Below are positions 28,094 to 39,191 of a DNA stretch of 40,801 nucleotides, piece by piece. The translations under genes and the position numbers were made by a program. The notes beneath the pieces were generated by a model. That model had not been told where the DNA came from and did not search any database. It saw only the letters and a list, made by a program, of their open reading frames with translations. Source of the stretch: Candidatus Heimdallarchaeota archaeon (GTDB lineage Archaea > Asgardarchaeota > Heimdallarchaeia > JABLTI01); assembly GCA_019056785.1 (NCBI GenBank), contig DXJV01000075.1:1-40801 (forward strand). The letters are read 5' to 3'. The first letter of the stretch is position 1, and each line of letters starts with the position of its first letter.

Positions 28094-30157
28094 TCAACGC
28101 TTTTTAATGGTATGCTCTACCGGAACAATACCCTCAAGAGGGATTTTTTGGAGACAATGAGGACAGGTACCATTTGCTTTGACCCATTCTTGGAAGTGCG
28201 GGAGGTGCCCTTTAGCTTCACAGAGGGGGCAGAAACCATAAGTTTCTCCAAAAGAGATGGGCAATTTACAGATCTCACAATGAGGAATGGGTTCACCACA
28301 ATCAGGACAAAGCTTAAAGTCCTTTTCGATGGGATAACCACAGTTATGGCAGGTATAACTTCCAACCTCTTTGAAGCTGTCGAGAATCTTGGAAATAGCT
28401 TCTTCAGCTTCGATGGTTTCATCTTGAAGGATTTGTGGGATTCTTACGACATCTTTTTGCACTTGAAAAGCAAGCTCGTCGGGAAGCTCAAGCAACCATT
28501 TCTCAAGCTCCAGGGTATCTTTGAATTTTAGCAAACTGGCCATGCGTTCGAGAGAGATTTCACTATAACGTTTGATTATCTTGCGAAGATTTAATTCGCG
28601 CTCTTTTTGAAGGGCAATTTCAGCTTCAGCAGTTTGAAGCTTCTCCAAAATGTCTTGTTTCTTCAGCTCCAATTCATACATGACTTGCTTCTGAGCAAGA
28701 TTGCGTTCTACAGCACCAGACTCATAAGCTTGGATAAGTTCTTCATAATCATCAAAACCGATTTTCTTGCCGATCTCACTTAACATGAATGCCGTGAGGG
28801 AACGAAGCAACGAATCCTTATCTCTCAACAAAGGAAGAAGCTCAGGAATAGCCTTCAGAGGTTCAATATCAACAATCATTCGAGTCGCTTCATCTTTTAT
28901 GTCAATGTCATCAGTATTCTTAATTAGGCCAACTAACGCAGACGCATAACCTTTCTGTCCGAGCTTTAAGAGAGTTTCTTTAACAATTTCAAGGATTGCT
29001 TCATCCTCCTCGAGGTTTTGAAGCATATCCACGAGAGGAGGAATATCATTTACTCCACCAATTAATCCCAGTGCTTTACCAGCTGCCTTGCGAACATTAA
29101 AACTCGAGTCTTCATAAAGAATGGCAGTTAAAATTGTGCCGGAATTTGCAGCATTAATCTCCACAAGAGCATTTATGGCTTTGATGCGAATGTCATCATC
29201 CGAATCATTCTCAATAACAGATTCGAGGGCATGAATAATATCCTCTCCACCTATTTTAGCAAAGGCATCAATAACTTCCATCCGGAGGTCCTTGTTAAGC
29301 TCATCCTGCAAGATTTGAATCAGAATGTCTGTTGCTTCTTTGGAACGGATGTTCCCAAGAGCCTGGACCGCCTTCTCCCGTACGAGAATGTCCTCATCTT
29401 CCATGGCAGTCTCGAGCAGAATGGGAATGGCTTCTTTCGCGCGGATCTTCCCCAGAGCTTCAGCAGAGACTGCACGCTCATAAGATTGTGAACCTTCCAT
29501 AAGTCGGGCCATAAGTTTAGGAATAATCTTACTATCGCCAAGCTCGCCAAGCACAGCTTCAATGTTAACCTTGATCTCATCCGAGGAAACCTTTTTGTGC
29601 AGTTTTTTCAGCTTCGAAATGATCTCTTTCGTGCCAATTTTTGCTATCGTCTTAATAGCTTCGATACGCACTAATTCATCCTCTTCCTCATTAGCGGCAA
29701 TTCGTTCGAGAAAAGGGACAGCATCAGAGCCGGTAACACGCTCGAGTGTTTGAATGGCATAATAACGAATGGTTCGCTCCTCATAATCTGTAATGAGAGT
29801 CTTAATGGTTCGTTCGGCTTTTTTGGCGGCTTTACCAATCTTGGAGAAGGTATCAAGAATTAGCTGGAGAATTTCTTCGTCATCATAAAAACTATCGATT
29901 AAATCAATTAAATCAGGAACGGCTTTCTCTGCTTTTGCACCGAAGTTGCCAATAGTCTCTATAACCAAATAAAGAACATCATAGTCGGTTTCATTATGCA
30001 ATGTCTCAATAAGATCATTTAAGGCGCGTTCAGCTTGTTCTTGGAGAGACTGGAGCTCCTGAATGGCCTCAAATCGGACAGCTTCGTCAGGGTTATTGCG
30101 CAACTGGTACACAAGCTCTTTAATGCGCTCATTCAACTCTTTTTGCTCTTCACTCAT
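28094..30157 (-). CDS. HEAT-repeat protein with PCI-like winged helix and C-terminal zinc-ribbon + RING-like domain (putative E3 ligase)
   Basis: More than 10 HEAT units (VRFEAIQEL, VREKAVQALG, VRKAAGKALG); RYSEISLERMASLL; five CxxC pairs plus GHxxHxxxW. Confidence 0.85.
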   Translation of the reverse strand: MSEEQKELNERIKELVYQLRNNPDEAVRFEAIQELQSLQEQAERALNDLIETLHNETDYDVLYLVIETIGNFGAKAEKAVPDLIDLIDSFYDDEEILQLILDTFSKIGKAAKKAERTIKTLITDYEERTIRYYAIQTLERVTGSDAVPFLERIAANEEEDELVRIEAIKTIAKIGTKEIISKLKKLHKKVSSDEIKVNIEAVLGELGDSKIIPKLMARLMEGSQSYERAVSAEALGKIRAKEAIPILLETAMEDEDILVREKAVQALGNIRSKEATDILIQILQDELNKDLRMEVIDAFAKIGGEDIIHALESVIENDSDDDIRIKAINALVEINAANSGTILTAILYEDSSFNVRKAAGKALGLIGGVNDIPPLVDMLQNLEEDEAILEIVKETLLKLGQKGYASALVGLIKNTDDIDIKDEATRMIVDIEPLKAIPELLPLLRDKDSLLRSLTAFMLSEIGKKIGFDDYEELIQAYESGAVERNLAQKQVMYELELKKQDILEKLQTAEAEIALQKERELNLRKIIKRYSEISLERMASLLKFKDTLELEKWLLELPDELAFQVQKDVVRIPQILQDETIEAEEAISKILDSFKEVGSYTCHNCGYPIEKDFKLCPDCGEPIPHCEICKLPISFGETYGFCPLCEAKGHLPHFQEWVKANGTCPHCLQKIPLEGIVPVEHTIKKR

Positions 30158-30270
30158 TCTTTTATCAAATCCAAAGAAAGTTTGTATTATGTAAGATTAG
30201 ACAAATAATTATGTGCAGTTTTCCTTTAAGAAGTTTGATTTTGAGGCAGAAGAAAAAGAAAGAAAAGAAT

Positions 30271-30725
30271 TTAGAAGGCGACTTTTAAGCCACCTAACTC
30301 GAGATGGTGTTTGTCGTGCTCCCAGATTCTTAACAAATTCTCAGAACGAAGAAACGATTTCTCGTCGGTAACAATCTCAGGAACAGAGAGGAGGCTTTTA
30401 AACTGGTTAAGAAGTTCCGTACGTGTTTTTTTGAATGATTTTTTAAGTTCTACCAGAGATAAACCTTGCTTTTGAGCGATTATTTTATCATTCCATATAT
30501 TGTAGTCGAGCTTCTGTTTTTGATGAGAGAATTGGAATCCTTCTAAAGCATTAGCCTTTTTAGCTTTACAAGCACGAATTAGTTCGTTGTCCCACGACCA
30601 AATATGAATGAGAAGCTCTTTGAGTCCCAACCATTCGGGAGCGCAAAAGAGTCTCCCAAGCCACTAATGATCTTTGTGGTTTATTCTGTTCGAGTGATAT
30701 GATCTTTTAGAGTAAGAGCAAACAT
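30271..30725 (-). pseudogene. DinB/ClbS-like four-helix-bundle protein, 5'-disrupted
   Basis: LKELLIHIWSWD, DYNIWND and WEHDKHH motifs are intact. The upstream ATG (30725) runs into TAA after 14 codons and is in a different frame, and the ORF's own frame has a TAG shortly upstream. Confidence 0.55.
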
Positions 30726-30786
30726 GGTTTAGACATGGGGAAAAACACATTAATTTATATTTCTTACTTACGCAAAGTGACTACAA

Positions 30787-31785
30787 ATGACCCTCCGACC
30801 GGCAAAACAACAAAAAGGCGGTTATGTAATCAAAACCTTACGCGAAAAAGGAGCCGAGACAATAGAAGGTTTAAAGAGAGAGGGAGTGCTGGATCAAACG
30901 AGGGAGGTGGTAGCCGACGGGGAGTTTCTCTGGATACCGGTAAAAAAGAAGATTAAAGGTGCTAAAAAGAGAGTCATGCCACAAAAAAAGATGAAACACT
31001 TAAGAAAAAGTTTGAAAGAGGAATTTGGGCTCAAGGCTTTCGACGTTATTGGAGAGACAATTGTTCTTTTCCTCCCTCAAGAATTGGAGGAGAAAGCACA
31101 AGAAATTGGGGAGTATCTTTTAAAGCTCTACCCAAAAGTGAAAGCGGTCTATAAAGAAGTAGGAAAAACCAAAGGAACATTTCGAGTGCAACAGAAAAAA
31201 TTGCTAGCCGGAAGTGGCTCAGAAACTATCCACACTGAACACGGCTTAAAATTCAAGCTGGATGTCACAGAAGTGTTTTTCTCACCACGCCAGTTAACCG
31301 AACGATTACAAATCACAAAATTTGTAAAAAAAGGAGAAAAAGTCTGCGTCTTTTTTTCAGGGATAGGAGCAATTCCAATTTACTTAGCAAAATATACTGA
31401 AGCAAAAGAAATAATCGGTATAGAATTAAATAAAAAGGCGCATGACTACGCTTTGCAGAATGTAAAATTAAACAAAATAGAGCCCCAACGAGTGCAACTA
31501 ATAAATGATGATGTTCGAAAGGTTGCACGGAAATGGGAGAAGGAAAAGAGAACGTTTTCACTGGTCATACTTGCAGAACCTAAAAATGAGCCCTCAATGT
31601 TTCAAGAAGCGAAGACCATTCTTAGAGAGAAAACAGGAAGGATTTTACTGTCCTTTGTGGGAACAAAAGCAATTTATGAACGAAGGATTGCTGAAATAGA
31701 AAAAGAAGGATTTATCGTCAAAAAAATCTTTGAAAAGAAACGGCTTGGTCCACAGGAAAGCCGCTATCTACTACTATGCCAATAA
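30787..31785 (+). CDS. Met-10+/Trm5/Tyw2 family tRNA-modifying SAM-dependent transferase
   Basis: FDVIGE, GTFRV, ETIHTEHGLKFKLD, FFSPRQLTER, FSGIG, GIELN. Motifs are somewhat divergent (VFFSGIG, LAEPK). Confidence 0.85.
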   Translation: MTLRPAKQQKGGYVIKTLREKGAETIEGLKREGVLDQTREVVADGEFLWIPVKKKIKGAKKRVMPQKKMKHLRKSLKEEFGLKAFDVIGETIVLFLPQELEEKAQEIGEYLLKLYPKVKAVYKEVGKTKGTFRVQQKKLLAGSGSETIHTEHGLKFKLDVTEVFFSPRQLTERLQITKFVKKGEKVCVFFSGIGAIPIYLAKYTEAKEIIGIELNKKAHDYALQNVKLNKIEPQRVQLINDDVRKVARKWEKEKRTFSLVILAEPKNEPSMFQEAKTILREKTGRILLSFVGTKAIYERRIAEIEKEGFIVKKIFEKKRLGPQESRYLLLCQ

Positions 31786-32026
31786 TAGGCGTGTTATTGG
31801 AACAGTGCCTTTTTAACTGGAAAAAACGATTATTTAGCCGTTTTTTCAACTACAGCTATTTATTACTGACTCTTTTTTTTATCCGATAGAGTAAAATTAC
31901 AAAAACAAACGTTCATTTTTACCTGTTCTTACCTACTTTTTTAAGATAAATAGTAAACGATAATCTTTTTTAGATTAAGAACATACATAATTAGTTTTTA
32001 AACAAAAAAGGAGCAACAAAGGAAAA

Positions 32027-33685
32027 ATGAACAGTCAGAATAAACAGGATTTTGTTGTCATCTCTAAGGCAAAGCCAATGAATTACAAAACCAATTATGT
32101 TTATTTGCCGAAAGATTATGGCTCAAAGAACTATTTTGAACGAGCAGACGTCCAAGCAATCCGAAATGTTGTTTTCCAAAATCTGGACATATTAAATGAC
32201 AAAAGCCAATTTCTCCAGAAGATGCGAAATAAGAAGCTCATCCTTAAACCAAATCTTGTTGGCGTTTTTCGTGACATCGGCTTCTCACCTGCAATAGTCC
32301 CCCAATCGACTGACCCGAGAGTATTAGATGCCATTGTCGAGTACTTTACGCCATTTGTTGATGAGATCATTATTGCCGAAGCATCAGGAAGTGGCTTTCC
32401 TACAAGAACATCATTTAAGTTGGCTGGGCTTGACAGATTGGCCAAATATAGGGGCATTCAATTAGCATGCTTAGAAGAACAGCCAGTTGAGAGATACTAT
32501 TTGCCAAAAGCTAAAGCAATGAAGGAATGTCTTATTCCAGCTATTTTCGGCGAAGTGGTCCGGAAGGAAGCAAGCTACATTTCCATCCCAAAAATGAAGA
32601 CAAACATGTATACCGAGGTGACTTTAGGGTTTAAAAATGCCATGGGGATTATCCCCTTAAATTTGCGTCAAAGAGACCATAACTACAATCTTGAACAAAA
32701 ATTGGTGGACCTCTTATTCCTTCTAAAACCTGATGTGACAATCATTGATGGAATTGTTGGAGGGCAAGGGCAAATCCCCGCAACCGCCGAACCAATTGAA
32801 AGTGGTATTGTTATTAGCGGAACAAATGTCGTTGAAACAGACCGTGTCGCTACAGAGATCATGGGATTGAAAGCAGAGAAAGTAAAACTCATCCACCTGG
32901 CTAAAAAAATGGGCTTTGGAAATGACAGCATAGAAATCATAGGTGAGAAAGAACCAATACCCTTCAAACAAGCAGACCCCTCGTTAATGAACGATGCCTT
33001 CCACGAAAAATTCCCCAAAGTTACCGCCCTTATTGGTCATCAGTTAAAAACCGCACCAAAAATAACCGACTTGAAGAAGGTAAAGAAGAACGATTTGAAA
33101 AAAATGGAGTTGGCATGCCGTGGTGGATGTCTAGTAGCTACACGAATGGCCTTCGAATTGTTAGCCGCTGAGGAACAAAAAATCCCTCCAATGACTATTA
33201 TCATTGGAAAAGGCGTCATTGTAAATGGCAAGGGCCCATATTATTTTAACAGAGAGGGCAAAGTATACACATTGAAAAAAATAGCCGAAATCAAACAACC
33301 CGTACTGGCAGTAGGAAGCTGTACAAGTCACTAAAAAGATCTTACAGACATCTATATTGAAGGCTGTCTCTTCCATCCCGGCTTAGTGCATGTGAAACTC
33401 CACAAACTAACAAAGTCAAAATGTAAAATGACCGGCTTTAAAAATAAACATTTATTGAAACTAATAACAGACACACTAAAAATGCGAAAAATACGCCGCA
33501 AACGGATAAAAAATGGACAATATGTTGACATCGGCCTAGACGAAGTTGAAACTGAAGCACAATACCCAAAAACCACCATAGACCCAACATTGGACTTTAT
33601 TGAATGGGAGCTCGCAGAAATGACAAAACAGCGGAAAAAAGCGCTTATAAAAGACGAATGGAAGTCACTTATGATCCTTTTCTAG
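32027..33685 (+). pseudogene. DUF362 family Fe-S protein interrupted by an in-frame TAA at 33332-33334
   Basis: LILKPNL, TDPRV, PKMKT, KNAMG, IIDGIVGG, ACRGGC. The frame continues VGSCTSH*KDLTDIYIEGCLFHP into ORF 33386-33685 (offset 1359 nt, same frame). Confidence 0.75.
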
Positions 33686-33711
33686 GGGAGAATTTTCCCC
33701 TGCCTTTTTTT
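33684..33711 (+). terminator. Hairpin plus T-tract after the DUF362 gene
   Basis: AGGGGA-GAATTT-TCCCCT followed by GCC and T7. Confidence 0.5.
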
Positions 33712-33840
33712 GTATATCCTCTTGAAATTTTGAGTCAGGCTAAAAAAGCAAAGTGGTATTTTGATTAAATTGCCCGTTCGGAAAAATTCCGATTACATAA
33801 TATTTATATTTTTCAATTTGAAGAAGAGTCTATCTTTTGT

Positions 33841-34365
33841 GTGGAGATGAAATTAATGAAACCAATAAGCCTTTGTCTTGTACAGATTGGTAATAAGGGT
33901 ATTGAACTTGTGAATTCATATCCGAACGTTTTGCCAGCTGAGGTTACAAACCAGATCATCCTCAAGTCGATGCCTTTTGGGGCGAAACATGGGGATTTCA
34001 TCACAACAAATTCAGGGCAGCTATTTCTTTCCGGATATGTTTTCAAAATCCCCAGAGAAAATGAAAGGGACAATTTAGCATCCATCGTTGCAGTTTATGA
34101 TTCTGAAAAATACAACCCTCCGGCGATAAAGAAACTCTTTTCAATAACAATTGAAAAATTAACTGAAAATAAGTTAGTGAATATTGAAACAATTGAAAAA
34201 ATCTTGCCAGAAATTTATAATGGTATGAGCAAAGGGCATTTAAAAATAAAGATCAGCTCCATTGTGACTTTGGAAATCGATTTTATTACTGAAGAAGAAA
34301 AGGAGAGCCCCACAGACCCCACCGAAGAGATTGTCTCAGACGTACAAAGAGAGTTGTGGAAATAA
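33841..34365 (+). CDS. uDENN/longin-like protein, putative GTPase regulator
   Basis: LVQIGNKGIELVNSYP...IILKSMPFG...DF...GYVF...ASIVAV resembles upstream-DENN domains; first gene of the operon with the Arf-like GTPase. Confidence 0.6.
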   Translation: MEMKLMKPISLCLVQIGNKGIELVNSYPNVLPAEVTNQIILKSMPFGAKHGDFITTNSGQLFLSGYVFKIPRENERDNLASIVAVYDSEKYNPPAIKKLFSITIEKLTENKLVNIETIEKILPEIYNGMSKGHLKIKISSIVTLEIDFITEEEKESPTDPTEEIVSDVQRELWK

Positions 34366-34391
34366 GCGCAAAAGAAAGGAGAAATGTAGAA

Positions 34392-34925
34392 ATGGCTTTT
34401 ATTTTAAAATTATTTAAAAAAATAAAACAATCAAATGTAACTATTGCCGGCTTGGATAATGCCGGAAAAACGGCTTTTGTAAATTATCTCATTAAGGGGA
34501 CATTTGTGCCCACAGTACCAACGGCCGGAATTAACCGGGAAACCATAAATCTGCCAAAACTTCAGTTGGCAGTTTATGATTTGGGGGGACAAGAGAAATT
34601 CCGGGGGCTCTGGACACAAGTAAATGAAAAAGCAAATGGCCTAATCTATGTCATCGACAGTACCGATAAGGCGCGATTCGATTTAACGCTCCAAATCCTC
34701 TATGAGATTTTAGAGACACAAGTCAATGAGCTGATACCGGTCTTGATCCTTTTACATAAACATGACCTCCCGGAAAGAATTGAGTTAGAGGAATTCCTGG
34801 CGAAGACAGACTTTACACGATTTAATGTCAAATGGTCCTGTTTTGAAACCTCAGCAAAAACCGGTGAGGGGATCATTAAAGCTATGACCTGGTTTATTAA
34901 AGAATTGGAGGCACAAACCCAATGA
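34392..34925 (+). CDS. Arf-family small GTPase
   Basis: G1 GLDNAGKT, G2 TVPTAG, G3 YDLGGQEKFR, IYVIDSTD, G4 variant HKHD, G5 TSAK; amphipathic N-terminus MAFILKLFKK (ATG 34392). Confidence 0.93.
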   Translation: MAFILKLFKKIKQSNVTIAGLDNAGKTAFVNYLIKGTFVPTVPTAGINRETINLPKLQLAVYDLGGQEKFRGLWTQVNEKANGLIYVIDSTDKARFDLTLQILYEILETQVNELIPVLILLHKHDLPERIELEEFLAKTDFTRFNVKWSCFETSAKTGEGIIKAMTWFIKELEAQTQ

Positions 34926-35857
34926 ATGGTTTTACCATCTTTTTCCTCGTGAATAGCGATATAAGCGTTTTAGCGTGCATTCTTTTTTCATCCAGCTTAT
35001 TAGCAGTTTTAATTAGAAAACGGACAATGGGGACATTGTTACTTTGGATCACCTTTTTGTCAACAACTTTTGCGGAAATACTTTTGGGGATAAGCTTTCA
35101 TTTAGAAGCTCTCTCAGCAACAACAATGACAACAGTTACAGAAGCATTGTCCTATACAAGTTATATCTTATTCGCATCGAATATTGTATTCCTTTATGCT
35201 TTTGGCAACAGGTTAATTTTACGAGACAACAGCTTTATTCAGTTAGTTTATTTTGTTGGGTTTGTTTTCCCGCTGGCGCTCCCTGTCGGACTCATTTTTA
35301 AGAACATCCTCGAGTTTCACGACCCAAACCTCTATACAAAAGTCAGTTTAACAATATCTAATCTTAGCATTGTTATGCCTGTGCGGTCGATAGCCCTTTT
35401 GGCCATTATGGGGCCACTAGGCATATCAGCATTCTTACGAATCGTCATAAAAGCCATTCGTATCCAGCGTGGTACAAAAGATAAAATAGCAAAGGAAGGG
35501 TTCAAGTACATCTGGCAAGGAACCTTCTTATGGTACATGGGCTATACGCTGTTATTTGCAACCTTATGGTATATACCGGTCTTTTCAACAAATCCAGTTT
35601 TGATAGTGATCATTTTCATGGTAAAACTGATCTTCTCAGATATTATCGGCTTCCTCCTCCTGTATTTAGGATGGGTGATGCCAGATTGGTTGAAGCGACG
35701 TTTGGGAACGAAAAGCTGGATTGCTAAGGTTTATACCGGCGAAATAAAAGTAAGCGAAAAAAAAGAAACAACAAAATCATTTGTCTACAAACAAGAGGAA
35801 CATACACAACAACAAAAAACAGGTTTTTCAGCTGTGGTTGAGGTAAGTGACAAGTAA
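34922..35857 (+). CDS. Seven-transmembrane protein of unknown function
   Basis: Seven hydrophobic segments by eye and a charged cytoplasmic-type tail; ATGA overlap with the GTPase stop. Confidence 0.75.
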   Translation: MNGFTIFFLVNSDISVLACILFSSSLLAVLIRKRTMGTLLLWITFLSTTFAEILLGISFHLEALSATTMTTVTEALSYTSYILFASNIVFLYAFGNRLILRDNSFIQLVYFVGFVFPLALPVGLIFKNILEFHDPNLYTKVSLTISNLSIVMPVRSIALLAIMGPLGISAFLRIVIKAIRIQRGTKDKIAKEGFKYIWQGTFLWYMGYTLLFATLWYIPVFSTNPVLIVIIFMVKLIFSDIIGFLLLYLGWVMPDWLKRRLGTKSWIAKVYTGEIKVSEKKETTKSFVYKQEEHTQQQKTGFSAVVEVSDK

Positions 35858-36442
35858 AAACAACAAATGGTAGAAAATATTATTATTCAACACTTACCAA
35901 GAAAAACCGATTTTTTCCTTTTTTTCTTTGCTAACAGTTTGGTTTCTTTTATAGTTTTTCAGCCTTAATTTTCTAGCTATTTCTTCTTCGAGTGTAAATT
36001 TGAGGAAGGCAATATGGAAAGTCATACATTAAGAAGATCGGAAACTCTCAAGCTAATGGAAGCAAAGAACAAGATGGTGCCTACTCCTTTCTAAAAGTTC
36101 CTTTCTTCATACCTACTAAAAAAAAATTAACTGAAAACTAACATAACAAAGCGCCTTAACAAAAACAAAAAGCTACACCCTCTTAAAACTAGATTTAAAT
36201 ATTTATCAAATCCAATTTTTATTACCATATATTAAGAGAAGTGAAAGTTAAATTGTTGAAGAAAAAACATCTTTCAGCAGTACTGATTTTACTGTTCTTT
36301 TTTATCTGGTTGGTTTGTTTTATGTTAACTATTCTCCTTCTCCCGGCATTGTTACTCGTTTAGGTGCTGATTGTGCAACCAAAAAATAAGTATACTTTTT
36401 AAACTGGTTCACTAATAAATTATCAAGAGGATTGAATGAATC

Positions 36443-36820
36443 TTGCACAAAGAAGAGGTAGAATTATTGCTAAAAAGAAGCAAGAACTTTTACGATGGTG
36501 CTAAGCAACGGTTTGAAAAAGGTGACTGGGATCTCGCTTGTTTCCTTGCAGAACAATCTGTTCAATTGTATCTAGAGGCATGTATCTTATAGGAAGCGGG
36601 ACAAACTCCAAGAACCCATTCTTTGCGCCAGCTACTTGCGCAGCTTAGTCTGGTTATTGGTAAAAACCTCGAGTATGACCGTAAAAGTTTATTTTTACTC
36701 GAGAGCGCTTATTTCAATGCTCGGTATATTGCTATTACTTATGATGAAGAACAAGCAAAAGACGCTTTGAAAATTGCCAAGGAGTTAATGGCTTATGTCA
36801 AAAATTCTCTCACTCAATAG
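36443..36820 (+). pseudogene. HEPN-domain protein (HEPN-MNT toxin) with an in-frame TAG at 36590-36592
   Basis: Hand translation from TTG 36443: MHKEEVELLLKRSKNFYDGAKQRFEKGDWDLACFLAEQSVQLYLEACIL*EAGQTPRTHSLRQLL...LESAYFNARY; typical archaeal HEPN motifs. Confidence 0.82.
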
Positions 36821-37139
36821 AGCTCGCTATCTGCTGTTAAAAAAATATCGAAAGTATCTTGAACCAATAAAAAGAGCCTACTTGGAGTTTTTACCTGATG
36901 CAAGGCTTTTCCTTTTCGGTAGTGCGCTTAGTGGCGATTTGGTTGCTGCTAGTGATATTGACATCCTGATTTTAACGAACAAAGAATTTAAGAATCACAT
37001 GGAGCATGCAGTTGTAGTCATCGGCATTGAAGACCGTATTGGCTTGCCTTTTGTCCATCCTTTTGAATTCCATATAATGACTCGCACCAAATATCAGCGA
37101 TTCATTTCTACTACTGGTGCTCAATTAGAAGAATTCTAG
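36795..37139 (+). CDS. Minimal nucleotidyltransferase (MNT antitoxin)
   Basis: LFGSALSGDLVAASDIDILI, PFEFHI; overlaps the HEPN gene. Confidence 0.88.
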   Translation: MSKILSLNRARYLLLKKYRKYLEPIKRAYLEFLPDARLFLFGSALSGDLVAASDIDILILTNKEFKNHMEHAVVVIGIEDRIGLPFVHPFEFHIMTRTKYQRFISTTGAQLEEF

Positions 37140-37358
37140 TTTTACCTTTTTTAGTGTAGACGGGTTTAGATTATGGTCATGCAAAAAATATTTGCGAGCT
37201 AAATCGTAGTACCAAAGGAAAAATGGATTTTCAAAATATTTTTTGGGTGAATTTTATCTTTCTTGAAGAGATAAGAGAAATCGTCATTAATCTTCGATTT
37301 GAACCAATGCCTTGTGAGTTCCCTCTTTGTTATTCAGACAAACAAATTGAAACAAAAC

Positions 37359-39191
37359 TCATTTTTTCTTAAAAGGCACCTCGACTGGTATTACCCCCTG
37401 TAAAGGCAATTCTTGTAAACAGCTTGGGCACTTGCCTTGAGTTTTTACCCATTCTTCAAGATGATGGAGATGGCCTTTTGCCTCACACAGGCTACATTGT
37501 CCAATGAGCTCGCCAAAGGAGATGGGGAGCTTGCAAACATTGCATTTTAAAAGTTCTTTCCCACAAGCCGAGCAAATTGGACTCTCAGGCTGTTCGATGG
37601 GCATGCCACAATAATAACAGGTTGAATATTGCACTTTTAGATTATTAATTAAGACATCAGTATTTTCCTTTCGAATAAAGACCTGCTCTAATTCTAAGTA
37701 TTCACCAACAGAAGGATTCTCACTGATTAGGTTTTTTAATAAAACTTCCATTTTCTCTTCTGGAAAATCAACAAACTTTGCGATCCTCGGAAGAGTAATT
37801 GGAATGTTTGGCCTTACTTGTGAAAGTAACTCTAAAATTTTGGGAAAAACTTTATCCTTATTTCTATGGAAGTTAACCTCCTGTTCGATCTTTCTTTGAT
37901 CAAATGGTATCTTTAGCCAATGATGAGCCTGTTCGAGTTTTTTCAAAACTCTTTCATCCAACCCATTTTTCACTAAAAAATCCAGTAAAACATCTCTTGC
38001 TTCTTCAAGCTTGTTTAATTCTTTAAGAAAATTATAAACATGATCGACGGTTTCATAGCTACGAGGTCCCAACTTGACTAATTTTTGGCAATAATAATAG
38101 GCTTGTTCTAGATCTCGTTTCCACACTTTTTCGGAAGGTCCCCCCACAATTAGAATGGAAGTTTTATAAAGGGCCATTAATTTGAGCAACCAACGTTCAT
38201 TATTAGGTTCTAAATCATGTAACATTTTATAATATTGCACCGCAAGAGCATAATTTTTCAATTCAACCCAAATTGTAGCAAGTTCAGACAAAGCTTCTTT
38301 TTGTTCTGGCATTTCTTCAATGATTTTTTGGAGCGTTCCAATTTGAGCCTTCTTGTTTTTAATCTTCCCAAACGCAGCCGCAAGCTTAAAACGAGCTTTA
38401 AGAAAGGTGGGGTTTATTTTAAGACAACGAAGGAAGAAGGGGATTGCAGCATGAAAGTCTCTGTAAAAATAACTCAAAATTAACCCGCGAACATAAAGAA
38501 GGATGTAGTTTTGCTTTTCTTTTTTCAGCAGCAAATTAATTAGTAATTCGACGTCATGCATATAGTTCACACCAAAGGCTTCTTTATTTGTACCTCTTGG
38601 AATATCAAAGCCAAAAAACTCGATGCCCTTTAGAAGAGTCATTATTGCTTCGCTCAAATTATTGAGGTGATAATAAAGAAGACTTAAACGCACCCACCCG
38701 TAAAAGAAATCCTTTTTTAAGGCGACTGCTTTTTTCCAACCAACCAAAGCGCAATCTGTTTTTTTCACCACCTCGAGTAAAAGACTAATATCTGCAAGAA
38801 AAAGATGATTGGACAGGCTAGCAAGATAATCAGTTAAACCCCCAAATAAGGAACCAATGGTTTGCAGATACTGTTCAATGAGTTTCTTATCAGTATACCA
38901 AGTGGTTAGAACAACCCGAGTAAATCGGGGAAAATATTTGAGTATATCCTTTCCGATTTTTTTCATCACGATTAATACACTAGTACGTTGTTTGCTTTTT
39001 ATTGTAGGATCAGAGAGAGCCTTTAACAGGATATTAGGAAGCTCGTCACTTTTGAAAAGTAAACCATTAATAACCCAACCATCTACTATCTTCGAAACAA
39101 CACAAGAATGATCATTTTTTATCTGAAAAAGATGTTCAAGCTTAGTCTTCAATTTTCCCACCAAAAGAAAATCCATAAACCACAAAAACAA
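37359..39191 (-). CDS. TPR-repeat protein with PCI-like winged helix and C-terminal zinc-ribbon + RING-like domain (putative E3 ligase)
   Basis: TPR units (AAIPFFLRCLKINPTFLKARFKLA, AVQYYKMLHDLEPNN); ITLPRIAKFV; same Cys/His module as 28094-30157. Confidence 0.85.
   Translation of the reverse strand: MFLWFMDFLLVGKLKTKLEHLFQIKNDHSCVVSKIVDGWVINGLLFKSDELPNILLKALSDPTIKSKQRTSVLIVMKKIGKDILKYFPRFTRVVLTTWYTDKKLIEQYLQTIGSLFGGLTDYLASLSNHLFLADISLLLEVVKKTDCALVGWKKAVALKKDFFYGWVRLSLLYYHLNNLSEAIMTLLKGIEFFGFDIPRGTNKEAFGVNYMHDVELLINLLLKKEKQNYILLYVRGLILSYFYRDFHAAIPFFLRCLKINPTFLKARFKLAAAFGKIKNKKAQIGTLQKIIEEMPEQKEALSELATIWVELKNYALAVQYYKMLHDLEPNNERWLLKLMALYKTSILIVGGPSEKVWKRDLEQAYYYCQKLVKLGPRSYETVDHVYNFLKELNKLEEARDVLLDFLVKNGLDERVLKKLEQAHHWLKIPFDQRKIEQEVNFHRNKDKVFPKILELLSQVRPNIPITLPRIAKFVDFPEEKMEVLLKNLISENPSVGEYLELEQVFIRKENTDVLINNLKVQYSTCYYCGMPIEQPESPICSACGKELLKCNVCKLPISFGELIGQCSLCEAKGHLHHLEEWVKTQGKCPSCLQELPLQGVIPVEVPFKKK

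What the first reader, a model, noticed from the sequence alone, without database searches (positions are those of the whole stretch)
28094..39191. Modular E3-like family: HEAT or TPR solenoid plugged onto a shared PCI-like + Zn-ribbon + RING cassette
Seen: the C-termini at 28094-28351 and 37359-37619 align with 48 identities in 86 columns by my hand count (CKLPISFGE, CxLCEAKGHLxHxxEWVKxxGxCPxCLQ). The N-termini are unrelated repeat classes. Both proteins have a PCI-like segment (YSEISLERMASLL; ITLPRIAKFV) before the cassette. Inference: domain shuffling generating E3 ligases with interchangeable substrate adaptors and a common E2-binding or scaffolding end.
Basis: partly seen in the sequence, partly recalled or inferred. 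Interest (0 to 1): 0.7.

Follow-up and report, generated by a model that had tools for sequence, protein, structure and literature searches.

The report
Asgard solenoid proteins with ribbon-RING tail
Two unannotated genes of a Heimdall-group Asgard archaeon join different helical-repeat "adaptor" domains to the same three-zinc tail. The tail is most likely a ubiquitin-ligase handle, and it is related in sequence and predicted fold to the tails of the eukaryotic IFT-A and GATOR2 coat-like complexes.

Summary
The two tails align at 49/87 identities (E 2e-32). The N-termini are HEAT repeats in one protein and TPR repeats in the other, with no similarity between them.

The shared unit is a 4-Cys zinc ribbon plus an eight-ligand C4H2C2 RING, not "PCI + ribbon + RING". 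Both proteins have a winged helix (WH) in front of the tail, but the two WHs belong to different sequence families. Only the HEAT protein's WH scores as PCI by Pfam and by fold (Rpn12, CSN8). Among 144 cassette sequences, 86 have neither WH type.

The genome holds 13 ORFs with this finger, six of them with the ribbon. Public data hold 648 cluster representatives at E<=1e-10. The cassette is almost always C-terminal, behind HEAT, TPR, LRR, solute-binding or membrane-anchored domains.

The RING half resembles active RING-H2 ligases and the small RING of Asgard ubiquitin operons. The whole cassette matches IFT144/WDR19, IFT122, MIOS, WDR24 and WDR59 tails in sequence and fold. The genome encodes ubiquitin (ending GG), a canonical E2 and E1-like enzymes.

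Best reading: modular RING E3 ligases (about 0.5). Rival: a non-catalytic dimerising scaffold, as in GATOR2/SEA. No activity has been shown.

This scan had already noted the same family in other Asgard genomes. I found no paper describing it.

The parts
28094..30157 (-). Gene for P0001 (687 aa): HEAT solenoid, long helix, PCI-type winged helix, linker helix, zinc ribbon, RING
   Evidence: ORF and translation. Pfam. Model of residues 490-687 with pLDDT 94. Public copies are annotated 'hypothetical protein'.
28718..30157 (-). HEAT-repeat solenoid of P0001 (about residues 1-480)
   Evidence: Pfam HEAT_2 at E 7.3e-59 in seven stretches, plus HEAT_PBS, HEAT and HEAT_EZ.
28367..28687 (-). Long helix, winged helix (type WH1, PCI-like) and linker helix of P0001 (residues 491-597)
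   Evidence: Pfam PCI scores 25.1 bits against a cut-off of 22, and 27.9 bits in the genome search. Fold matches: Rpn12 Z 7.9-8.1 (29% identity over 59 aa), CSN8 Z 6.1-6.8, eIF3k Z 5.8, PCID2/LENG8/Csn12.
28298..28351 (-). Zinc ribbon of P0001 (C603, C606, C617, C620)
   Evidence: The four Cys are conserved in at least 141 of 144 cassettes. Pfam DZR hit at 603-646. Two beta hairpins in the model.
28154..28279 (-). RING finger of P0001 (C627, C630, C643, C646, H651, H654, C665, C668; pattern C4H2C2)
   Evidence: Ligands are conserved in at least 139 of 144 cassettes. Fold matches: Prp19 U-box Z 8.2-8.7 at rmsd 1.3-1.4 A over 56-58 aa, and RNF4, Ring1b, TRAF6 and EL5 RINGs. Profile hits to RNF126, EL5, RNF38 and Arkadia.
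37359..39191 (-). Gene for P0002 (610 aa from TTG; probably 605 aa from the ATG at 39176): TPR solenoid, long helix, winged helix (type WH2), linker helix, zinc ribbon, RING
   Evidence: ORF and translation. The identical 605-aa protein and 48-58% identical orthologues occur in Heimdallarchaeota. Model of residues 340-610 with pLDDT 88.
38178..38696 (-). TPR repeats of P0002 (residues 166-338)
   Evidence: Pfam TPR_19, TPR_2, TPR_1, TPR_14 and TPR_8.
37629..37898 (-). Long helix, winged helix (WH2) and linker helix of P0002 (residues 432-521)
   Evidence: Model secondary structure. Fold matches to CSN2, CSN4, proteasome-lid and eIF3 subunits at Z 8.4-9.2, tied with CAP, MarR and Z-alpha winged helices at Z 8.0-8.8. 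No Pfam PCI hit.
37563..37619 (-). Zinc ribbon of P0002 (C525, C528, C540, C543)
   Evidence: Alignments A1 and A6. Regex positions.
37419..37544 (-). RING finger of P0002 (C550, C553, C566, C569, H574, H577, C588, C591)
   Evidence: Alignments A1 and A6. Whole cassette against the WDR19 tail: Z 9.6. Prp19 U-box: Z 8.2 at rmsd 1.5 A.

Best explanation
P0001 and P0002 are two members of a large Asgard family of modular RING-type ubiquitin (or ubiquitin-like) E3 ligases.

The constant part is a C-terminal, roughly 85-residue, three-zinc cassette. It consists of a 4-Cys zinc ribbon, a fixed 6-residue linker, and an eight-ligand C4H2C2 RING of the same type as the small RING protein of Asgard ubiquitin operons.

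The proposed mechanism is inferred. The RING docks the genome's Ubc-type E2 charged with the GG-ended ubiquitin-like protein. The variable N-terminal module (HEAT in P0001, TPR in P0002; LRR, solute-binding ectodomains or membrane anchors in relatives) selects the substrate or the cellular location. The winged helix and its flanking helices, PCI-type in P0001 and a different family in P0002, dock the ligase to partners or oligomerise it.

Shown here: the domain anatomy, the homologies, the family size and the presence of the ubiquitin toolkit. Inferred: E2 binding, catalysis and substrate recognition.
For: - Tail homology: 49/87 identities, E 2e-32, on unrelated HEAT and TPR bodies.
- Twelve metal ligands are conserved in at least 139 of 144 cassettes. 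The three positions that contact E2 in canonical RINGs (established knowledge of RING-E2 complexes) are also conserved: V/I between the first two Cys (140/144), Trp in the central helix (131/144) and Pro after ligand 7 (140/144).
- RING/U-box fold in high-confidence models (pLDDT 94 and 88). Prp19 U-box Z 8.2-8.7 at rmsd 1.3-1.5 A; RNF4-UbcH5a, Ring1b, TRAF6, CHIP and EL5 follow.
- The cassette profile hits active RING-H2 ligases by sequence: RNF126 7.5e-7, RNF24, EL5, Arkadia, RNF4, RNF38, RLIM.
- RING-only paralogues in the same genome pass the Pfam zf-RING_2 cut-off.
- The RING half is 35% identical (E 8e-13), with the same ligand spacing, to the 81-aa RING encoded in a RING-Ub-E2-E1 operon of another Asgard genome. 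The Caldiarchaeum counterpart of that operon has been reconstituted as an E1/E2/RING cascade (PMC5654768, by its title and abstract).
- The genome has a ubiquitin-family protein ending in GG, an E2 with the HPN motif and catalytic Cys (120 bits) and three ThiF-type E1-like genes.
- Modularity: 13 finger ORFs in this genome. Public data give 2620 hits, 648 of them at E<=1e-10. The cassette is C-terminal in 129 of 138 full-coverage representatives. Partners include HEAT, TPR, LRR, LVIVD, SBP_bac_5 and membrane segments.
- In a 251-genome sample of the phylum, the finger and E2 are present or missing together in all 28 families, including 0/59 for both in one family. Every family whose best match is strong enough for the full cassette also has E2. 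This last point uses best E-value as my proxy for the full cassette.
Against: - No biochemical data exist. P0001 and P0002 themselves do not reach the Pfam zf-RING_2 cut-off.
- The 'linchpin' basic residue after the last Cys, which primes E2~Ub in many active RINGs, is Lys or Arg in only 33 of 144 cassettes and is Leu in both window proteins.
- The closest full-length relatives of the cassette (IFT144, IFT122, MIOS, WDR24, WDR59) use it structurally. MIOS also keeps the hydrophobic, Trp and Pro positions, so these residues do not separate a ligase from a scaffold.
- Neither gene sits next to ubiquitin, E1 or E2 genes, and their neighbourhoods are not conserved in relatives.
- The family-level co-distribution with E2 rests partly on RING-only proteins, and related genomes are not independent samples.
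Confidence: 0.5

Rival explanations
1. The ribbon-RING tail is a non-catalytic assembly module. Tails of different paralogues pair with each other (RING-RING or ribbon-RING heterodimers) and tie HEAT, TPR and membrane-anchored proteins into larger scaffolds. This is how the homologous tails of Sea2/3/4 (GATOR2 MIOS/WDR24/WDR59) and IFT-A subunits work. It can coexist with E3 activity.
For: - The whole cassette, ribbon included, matches the IFT144/WDR19 tail best by fold: Z 10.3 at rmsd 3.0 A over 85 aa, and Z 9.6 for P0002.
- It matches by profile: IFT144 6.9e-7 and 2.8e-6, MIOS 7.8e-6 (1.1e-5 with only the six own sequences), IFT122 5e-5, WDR24 8e-5, WDR59 9e-5.
- The spacing CxxC-x10-CxxC-x6-C(xxC) is identical in MIOS and WDR19. 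The CxxC-x4-H-x2-H-x3-W layout that follows is also present in MIOS.
- In IFT-A the RING fingers bind partner subunits (bioRxiv 10.1101/2022.08.09.503213).
- The genome has six ribbon-RING proteins that could pair.
- The loop KLPISFG between ligands 2 and 3 is far more conserved than a generic RING loop.
Against: - Unlike IFT144, whose finger has lost one zinc site (alignment), the Asgard cassette keeps all eight RING ligands.
- It is much closer to the operon-encoded small RING E3 (64.6 bits; 35% identity) than to any eukaryotic tail (at most 32 bits).
- In the sampled phylum the finger is found only where E2 is found.
- P0001 and P0002 have no beta-propeller and no Sec13/Seh1-like partner is evident.
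- Pairing of tails was not tested here.
Confidence: 0.27
2. The winged helix plus zinc ribbon form a nucleic-acid-binding or regulatory unit, so the proteins would be solenoid-linked transcription or RNA regulators. The C-terminal finger would then be a generic treble-clef zinc module unrelated to ubiquitin.
For: - The WH of P0002 matches DNA-binding winged helices (CAP, MarR, PurR, Z-alpha) as well as it matches PCI subunits, at Z 8.0-8.8.
- The Pfam PCI model also fires in control genomes that have no PCI complexes.
- Zinc ribbons are common in archaeal transcription factors (general knowledge).
Against: - 86 of 144 cassette proteins have no such WH.
- About half carry membrane segments (74 of 138 by a crude hydrophobicity count).
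- The finger matches RING/U-box folds at rmsd 1.3-1.5 A and RING-H2 ligases by sequence.
- The structural neighbours of the P0001 WH are mainly PCI subunits.
Confidence: 0.06

Closest known systems
C-terminal ZnF + RING domain of IFT-A subunits (IFT144/WDR19, IFT122) and of GATOR2/SEA subunits (MIOS/Sea4, WDR24/Sea2, WDR59/Sea3)
   Same: It is the same two-part unit at the extreme C-terminus of a helical solenoid: a 4-Cys ribbon, a 6-residue linker and then a RING. The spacing CxxC-x10-CxxC-x6-CxxC is identical, and in MIOS so is CxxC-x4-H-x2-H-x3-W...CP. Profile E-values run from 6.9e-7 to 1e-4 over the whole cassette. It is the best structural match for the whole cassette: WDR19 1250-1337 at Z 10.3 and 9.6; WDR59 at Z 6.0 with 28% identity.
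   Different: The eukaryotic proteins have N-terminal beta-propellers and belong to coat-like complexes. P0001 and P0002 have only HEAT or TPR repeats plus a winged helix. The IFT144 finger is degenerate, with site-I ligands lost, whereas the Asgard finger keeps all eight. The eukaryotic tails are known as structural connectors (PMC9646525), and the role of the Asgard tails is unknown.
Small RING finger protein (srfp) of archaeal ubiquitin operons (Asgard; Caldiarchaeum subterraneum cascade, PMC5654768)
   Same: The C4H2C2 ligand pattern and spacing are the same. The RING half of P0001 is 35% identical to it (E 8e-13). It is the best match of the cassette profile in genomes that lack the full cassette (64.6 bits). 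It is encoded in a RING-Ub-E2-E1 operon.
   Different: The srfp is about 80 aa, has no ribbon, solenoid or WH, and lies in the operon. P0001 and P0002 are 687 and 605 aa, lie outside any ubiquitin operon, and carry an extra zinc ribbon.
Eukaryotic RING-H2 E3 ligases (Pfam zf-RING_2: RNF126, RNF24, EL5, Arkadia, RNF38, RLIM, RNF4)
   Same: The RING half aligns with them at E 7.5e-7 to 1e-4 and shares the RING/U-box fold. The V/I, Trp and Pro positions are conserved.
   Different: Ligands 3 and 4 form a CxxC knuckle followed by x4-His, not C-x-H-x2-H. Ligand 6 is His, not Cys. A linchpin Arg/Lys is mostly absent. P0001 and P0002 fall below the Pfam cut-off.
PCI domain subunits of the proteasome lid, COP9 signalosome and eIF3 (Rpn12, CSN8, eIF3k type)
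   Same: P0001 residues 501-558 pass the Pfam PCI cut-off. A helical stretch followed by a WH matches Rpn12 (Z 7.9-8.1, 29% identity), CSN8, eIF3k and PCID2.
   Different: There is no evidence of a PCI/MPN complex. The PCI model is not fully specific. The WH of P0002 belongs to another sequence family and has no PCI signal by sequence.

Membership tests
RING-type E3 ligase (RING-H2 / zf-RING_2) | Eight conserved zinc ligands in cross-brace order | tested here: met
   C627, C630, C643, C646, H651, H654, C665 and C668 are conserved in at least 139 of 144 cassettes. The pattern is C4H2C2 with CxxC-x4-H, a variant of the canonical C3H2C3 spacing.
RING-type E3 ligase (RING-H2 / zf-RING_2) | RING/U-box fold | tested here: met
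   Predicted models match the Prp19 U-box at Z 8.2-8.7 and rmsd 1.3-1.5 A over 56-58 aa, followed by RNF4, Ring1b, TRAF6, CHIP and EL5. The zinc geometry itself could not be measured because no model coordinates are returned.
RING-type E3 ligase (RING-H2 / zf-RING_2) | Score above the Pfam zf-RING_2 gathering cut-off | tested here: not met
   P0001 and P0002 have no zf-RING_2 hit at E<=1. RING-only paralogues in the genome do pass it (28-34 bits), and 42 of 127 family representatives hit at E<=1e-3.
RING-type E3 ligase (RING-H2 / zf-RING_2) | E2-contact residues (hydrophobic residue between ligands 1 and 2, Trp in the helix, Pro after ligand 7) and a linchpin Arg/Lys | tested here: inconclusive
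   V/I is present in 140, Trp in 131 and Pro in 140 of 144 cassettes. The linchpin is K/R in only 33 of 144 and is Leu in both window proteins. MIOS, a structural RING, keeps the same three positions.
RING-type E3 ligase (RING-H2 / zf-RING_2) | Binds E2~Ub and stimulates ubiquitin transfer | not testable with these tools
   This needs a biochemical assay. The cognate Ub, E2 and E1-like genes are present in the genome.
ZnF-RING C-terminal domain of IFT-A / GATOR2 / SEA subunits | 4-Cys ribbon directly followed by a RING at the C-terminus, with matching spacing | tested here: met
   HMM alignments to WDR19, L. tarentolae IFT144 and MIOS cover profile positions 5-89 with the same CxxC-x10-CxxC-x6-C spacing.
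ZnF-RING C-terminal domain of IFT-A / GATOR2 / SEA subunits | Significant sequence and structure similarity over the whole unit | tested here: met
   Profile E-values are 6.9e-7 (IFT144), 7.8e-6 (MIOS), 5e-5 (IFT122), 8e-5 (WDR24) and 9e-5 (WDR59) in a database of 177,635 sequences. Foldseek top hits are 8bbg_A at 3.5e-5 and 7uhy. Z is 10.3 and 9.6 against the WDR19 tail.
ZnF-RING C-terminal domain of IFT-A / GATOR2 / SEA subunits | Protocoatomer body: N-terminal beta-propeller(s) followed by an alpha-solenoid | tested here: not met
   P0001 has only HEAT repeats and P0002 only TPR repeats, and neither has a propeller family hit. A few family representatives carry LVIVD propeller repeats (4 of 127); these were not examined further.
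ZnF-RING C-terminal domain of IFT-A / GATOR2 / SEA subunits | Tails heterodimerise to build a multi-subunit complex | not tested
PCI domain (Pfam PF01399) | Score above the Pfam PCI cut-off | tested here: inconclusive
   P0001 scores 25.1 bits against a cut-off of 22, and 27.9 bits in the genome search. P0002 has no hit, and neither do any of 31 relatives of its WH type. The model also passes its cut-off in 1 of 14 control genomes.
PCI domain (Pfam PF01399) | Helical repeats leading into a winged helix, with PCI subunits as nearest structures | tested here: inconclusive
   For P0001, Rpn12 (Z 7.9-8.1), CSN8, eIF3k, PCID2 and Csn12 dominate the WH matches. For P0002, CSN2, CSN4, lid and eIF3 subunits at Z 8.4-9.2 are tied with CAP, MarR and Z-alpha. 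All Z values are in the range the tool calls 'middling'.
Archaeal ubiquitin-operon small RING finger protein (srfp) | RING of this sequence type | tested here: met
   35% identity, E 8e-13, with the same ligand spacing. The cassette profile scores 64.6 bits on the operon RING.
Archaeal ubiquitin-operon small RING finger protein (srfp) | Small stand-alone protein encoded with Ub, E1 and E2 | tested here: not met
   P0001 and P0002 are 687 and 605-610 aa and have no ubiquitin-system neighbours. Orthologue neighbourhoods likewise lack them.

The most novel reading that the evidence does not exclude
The Asgard ribbon-RING cassette is the archaeal forerunner of the C-terminal ZnF-RING domains that hold together the eukaryotic coat-like complexes GATOR2/SEA and IFT-A. 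On this reading, Asgard archaea already use it to pair solenoid proteins into multi-subunit scaffolds, possibly coupled to ubiquitin transfer. A hallmark connector of the protocoatomer family would then predate eukaryotes and derive from a ubiquitin-operon RING that acquired a zinc ribbon.
Probability: 0.2. Interest if true: 0.85.

Novelty: new variant of a known kind. Interest (0 to 1): 0.6.

Why it matters
Ubiquitin ligases with swappable substrate adaptors, and coat-like complexes held together by ZnF-RING tails, are both regarded as eukaryotic inventions.

This work shows that a Heimdall-group archaeon, and many other Asgard lineages, carry a large, diversified family of solenoid and membrane proteins that end in the same ribbon-RING unit. 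The unit is related in sequence to both the archaeal ubiquitin-operon RING and the IFT-A/GATOR2 tails.

If the tails are active ligases, Asgard archaea already had an expanded, adaptor-based E3 repertoire, including receptor-like membrane E3s. If they are connectors, they bear directly on the origin of protocoatomer-type assemblies. Either outcome can be tested with recombinant proteins. The genes are currently annotated only as 'hypothetical protein' or 'tetratricopeptide repeat protein'.

Tried and rejected
- **Complex prediction.** I ran the genome's E2 (P0162) with the cassette alignment and three zinc ions. The job gave no verdict: score 0.29 against a mark of 0.32, and the controls were not run. 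It is not evidence either way.
- **Cassette tree.** A tree of 144 cassettes labelled by upstream WH type was meant to count domain swaps. With 95 columns, only 17 of 141 branches are well supported. The labels need 27 changes, but supported branches force only 1-2, so the number of swaps cannot be estimated.
- **Homology of the two WH families.** hhalign gives 1.9% probability. Profiles of either WH family against PDB sequences give nothing significant; the best E is 0.12-0.27, with RPN5, eIF3a and a PCI protein among the non-significant hits.
- **Conserved gene neighbours.** There are none. Orthologue contexts differ, and the flanking ORFs are not homologous.
- **Recent gene conversion between the two tails.** Rejected: DNA identity is 60%, and each tail is nearer to its own orthologues.
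- **The search for related loci.** The 144-row alignment failed for lack of a conserved stretch. The 6-row alignment found only Asgard/Heimdall MAG records plus one MAG labelled Bathyarchaeia.
- **Phylum-wide co-distribution with E2.** I first read this as applying to the cassette. A check of five genomes showed that hits outside the class are often RING-only, so the claim was narrowed.
- **Literature.** No paper combines Asgard with GATOR2 and RING. The listed results for Asgard with IFT144, WDR19, MIOS, Sea4 or IFT122 contain no Asgard paper.

Full report
**What is there**

The window is a whole 40.8-kb contig (C14) of a 2.87-Mb, 82%-complete genome. Earlier notes of this scan place the genome in the Heimdall group of Asgard archaea. 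Public copies of the two proteins come from Heimdallarchaeota or 'Asgard group' MAGs.

The finding spans two minus-strand genes. P0001 is window:28094-30157 (687 aa). P0002 is window:37359-39191 (610 aa from TTG; the database form is 605 aa from the ATG at 39176). They are separated by unrelated genes: a Trm5/TYW2-type methyltransferase, a DUF362 protein, an Arf-family GTPase with two unknown neighbours, and a nucleotidyltransferase.

**Check of the observation**

- BLASTP aligns only the tails: 49/87 identities, E 2e-32. No other segment reaches E<0.2.
- P0001 carries HEAT repeats (HEAT_2, E 7e-59, seven stretches). P0002 carries TPR repeats (E 7e-8 to 1e-6).
- The tails are 60% identical as DNA, and each is nearer to its own orthologue representative (67% and 70%). 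They are old paralogues, not a recent duplication or conversion.

**Anatomy of the tail**

I aligned the six ribbon-bearing paralogues of this genome and then 144 cassettes from this genome and public data. Twelve metal ligands are conserved in at least 139 of 144:

CxxC-x10/11-CxxC (zinc ribbon) - x6 - CxxC-x12-CxxC-x4-H-x2-H-x10-CPxC (an eight-ligand C4H2C2 finger)

AlphaFold2 models were built with these alignments:

| Model | Residues | Alignment depth | Mean pLDDT |
|---|---|---|---|
| P0001 C-terminal part | 490-687 | 113 rows | 94 |
| P0002 C-terminal part | 340-610 | 31 rows | 88 |

Both models show the same order: helical repeats or a long helix, a winged helix (strand-helix-helix-strand-strand), a linker helix, two zinc-ribbon hairpins, and a RING-like finger with its central helix.

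**Is the finger a RING?**

- A search of 48,161 representative PDB chains that does not rely on Foldseek puts the Prp19 U-box first for residues 136-194 (Z 8.2, rmsd 1.4 A over 56 aa). RNF4 bound to UbcH5a, Ring1b/Bmi1, TRAF6, CHIP, Pex RINGs and EL5 follow. A second look at Foldseek's own list gives the same picture.
- The tool warns that Z values of 7-8 are 'middling', so I looked for sequence support. The 144-row profile hits RNF126 (7.5e-7), RNF24, EL5, Arkadia, RNF4, RNF38 and RLIM over its RING half.
- Seven RING-only paralogues in this genome are linked to the cassette by phmmer (down to E 1e-10) and by the iterated HMM search. Five of them pass the Pfam zf-RING_2 cut-off in the genome search.
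- The RING half of P0001 is 35% identical (E 8e-13), with identical ligand spacing, to an 81-aa RING encoded in a RING-Ub-E2-E1 operon of another Asgard genome.
- Conclusion: the finger is a RING of the archaeal 'small RING finger' type. P0001 and P0002 themselves do not reach the Pfam cut-off. The ligand 3/4 pair is a CxxC knuckle, not C-x-H.

**What the whole cassette resembles**

- Foldseek's best PDB hits for the P0001 model are the tail of IFT-A subunit WDR19/IFT144 (8bbg_A, E 3.5e-5), GATOR2 (7uhy and later entries) and the yeast SEA complex.
- VIA-align gives WDR19 residues 1250-1337 a Z of 10.3 (rmsd 3.0 A, 85 aa) across ribbon plus RING. For the P0002 model Z is 9.6.
- By sequence, the profile matches over positions 5-89: IFT144 of Leishmania (6.9e-7), human WDR19 (2.8e-6), MIOS (7.8e-6), IFT122 (5e-5), WDR24 (8e-5) and WDR59 (9e-5).
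- With only the six sequences of this genome, MIOS is the top hit (1.1e-5). The printed alignment shows the same CxxC-x10-CxxC-x6-CxxC ... CxxC-x4-H-x2-H-x3-W ... CP layout.
The scan has therefore found this family before on other DNA.
- I found no paper that connects Asgard proteins with these eukaryotic tails. A 2026 preprint lists 'RING-type E3 ligases' among Asgard-eukaryote alpha-solenoid clusters without this analysis (PMC13734099).

**The 'PCI-like' segment**

The two winged helices are nevertheless not one module:

- Profiles of the P0001 type (WH1, 17 sequences) and the P0002 type (WH2, 21 sequences) do not match each other (hhalign probability 1.9%).
- Among 144 cassette sequences, 27 have WH1, 31 have WH2, none has both and 86 have neither.
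- WH1 passes the Pfam PCI cut-off in P0001 (25.1 against 22 bits). Its structural neighbours are mainly PCI subunits: Rpn12 (Z 7.9-8.1, 29% identity), CSN8, eIF3k, PCID2/LENG8 and Csn12.
- WH2 has no PCI hit in 31 relatives. Its matches to CSN2, CSN4, lid and eIF3 subunits (Z 8.4-9.2) are tied with CAP, MarR and Z-alpha winged helices.
- The Pfam PCI model also passes its cut-off in one of 14 control genomes, so the PCI label rests mostly on fold for P0001 and is open for P0002.
- The constant cassette is therefore ribbon plus RING. The WH is a second module that varies separately.

**How modular the family is**

In this genome an iterated HMM finds 13 ORFs:

- Six have ribbon plus RING: P0001 (HEAT-WH1), P0002 (TPR-WH2), a 407-aa membrane protein with WH1, a 453-aa helical protein, a 1014-aa two-segment membrane protein, and a 167-aa membrane protein.
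- Seven have the RING only, one of them with TPR repeats.

A search of 1.84 billion cluster representatives gave 2620 hits, 648 of them at E<=1e-10.

- The cassette is C-terminal in 129 of 138 full-coverage representatives, in proteins of 63 to 1250 aa.
- About half carry hydrophobic segments, by a crude count.
- N-terminal partners include TPR (about 9 of 127), HEAT_2 (6), PCI (5), LVIVD propeller repeats (4), LRR and an extracellular solute-binding domain. Many have no Pfam family.
- HEAT bodies occur with both WH types.

This is what a shuffled, adaptor-plus-handle family looks like. I could not count swap events because the 95-column tree is poorly resolved.

**Ubiquitin toolkit**

- The genome encodes a ubiquitin-family protein ending in GG.
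- It encodes a 152-aa Ubc-type E2 with the HPN motif and catalytic Cys (120 bits), plus two weaker UQ_con hits.
- It encodes three ThiF-type E1-like proteins.
- In an even sample of 251 genomes of the phylum, the finger (174 genomes) and E2 (176 genomes) are present or missing together in all 28 families. One family is 0/59 for both, and the single positive genome in another family is the same for both.
- A check of five genomes showed that outside the Heimdall class many hits are RING-only operon proteins, so this supports a link between the RING type and E2.
- For the full cassette I can only say that every family whose best E-value is strong enough for ribbon plus RING (my proxy) also has E2. 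Related genomes are not independent.

**Mechanism**

The best-supported reading is a modular RING E3. The solenoid or ectodomain picks the substrate or place, the WH docks or oligomerises, and the ribbon-RING recruits E2~Ub. Evidence in its favour:

- The full ligand set is kept.
- The V/I, Trp and Pro positions used by canonical RINGs to hold E2 are conserved (140, 131 and 140 of 144).
- The RING is close to the operon RING, whose Caldiarchaeum counterpart belongs to a reconstituted E1/E2/RING cascade (PMC5654768, title and abstract).
- It co-occurs with E2.

Evidence against or neutral:

- The linchpin basic residue is mostly missing (33 of 144; Leu in both window proteins).
- There is no operon link and no conserved neighbourhood.
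- MIOS, a structural RING, keeps the same three 'E2' positions.

The main rival is the role the homologous tails are known to play in eukaryotes. Sea2, Sea3 and Sea4 tails heterodimerise and hold the SEA cage together, with 'a ubiquitin-related function' still undetermined (PMC9646525). IFT-A RING fingers bind partner subunits. Six ribbon-RING proteins in one genome, and the very strongly conserved KLPISFG loop, would fit such pairing. The two readings are not exclusive.

**Verdict**

It is right about the modular ribbon-RING handle, the RING nature and the ubiquitin context. It is too generous in treating the PCI-like segment as part of one shared cassette. E3 activity is not shown.
- The feature is a new variant of a known kind: a prokaryotic, highly diversified family built on the ZnF-RING unit previously known from eukaryotic IFT-A and GATOR2/SEA tails. 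Its members are currently annotated as hypothetical proteins.

Noticed in passing
window:33841-35857 (+): Three tightly packed co-directional ORFs lie between the two ribbon-RING genes. The middle one (34356-34925) is an Arf-family small GTPase (Pfam Arf, 130 bits). The flanking ORFs (33841-34365 and 34922-35857) have no Pfam family, and their starts and stops overlap the GTPase gene, which suggests an operon.
   Followed up: no
G000:C60:45765-48806 (L014) and G000:C47:102312-103532 (L016): Two further ribbon-RING paralogues are membrane proteins. One is a 1014-aa protein with hydrophobic segments near residues 15 and 670 and no Pfam family before the tail. The other is a 407-aa protein with two hydrophobic segments and the same PCI-type winged helix as P0001.
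   Followed up: partly
P0118, P0081 (public representatives): These are receptor-like members of the family. P0118 has an extracellular solute-binding domain (SBP_bac_5), then a membrane segment, then the ribbon-RING. P0081 has an LRR array plus the ribbon-RING.
   Followed up: partly
P0093, P0128, P0129 (public representatives): These are exceptions to the C-terminal rule. WH2 plus ribbon-RING sits in the N-terminal half and is followed by a conserved domain of about 300 aa, rich in aromatic residues and of unknown family.
   Followed up: no
L056 (G001:C1:1061566-1064733): A 1.4-Mb Asgard genome of another family has a compact RING (81 aa)-Ub-E2-E1 operon. A divergently oriented gene beside it matches the UQ_con and UEV models (an E2-variant-like protein).
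   Followed up: partly
G000:C75:24191-24346, C98:114046-114195, C11:51058-51222: Three other ORFs of this genome pass the Pfam PCI cut-off (23.5-27.4 bits). The same model also passes its cut-off in one of 14 control genomes, so these may be generic winged helices.
   Followed up: no
The genome search sample of the phylum: One family of 59 sampled genomes, most of them over 90% complete, has neither the RING finger nor any UQ_con E2. Three smaller families also lack both. The ubiquitin toolkit and this RING type therefore appear to be lost or gained together.
   Followed up: partly
window:24994-26448 (+): A PALP (threonine-synthase-fold) domain is fused to a PadR-type winged helix.
   Followed up: no
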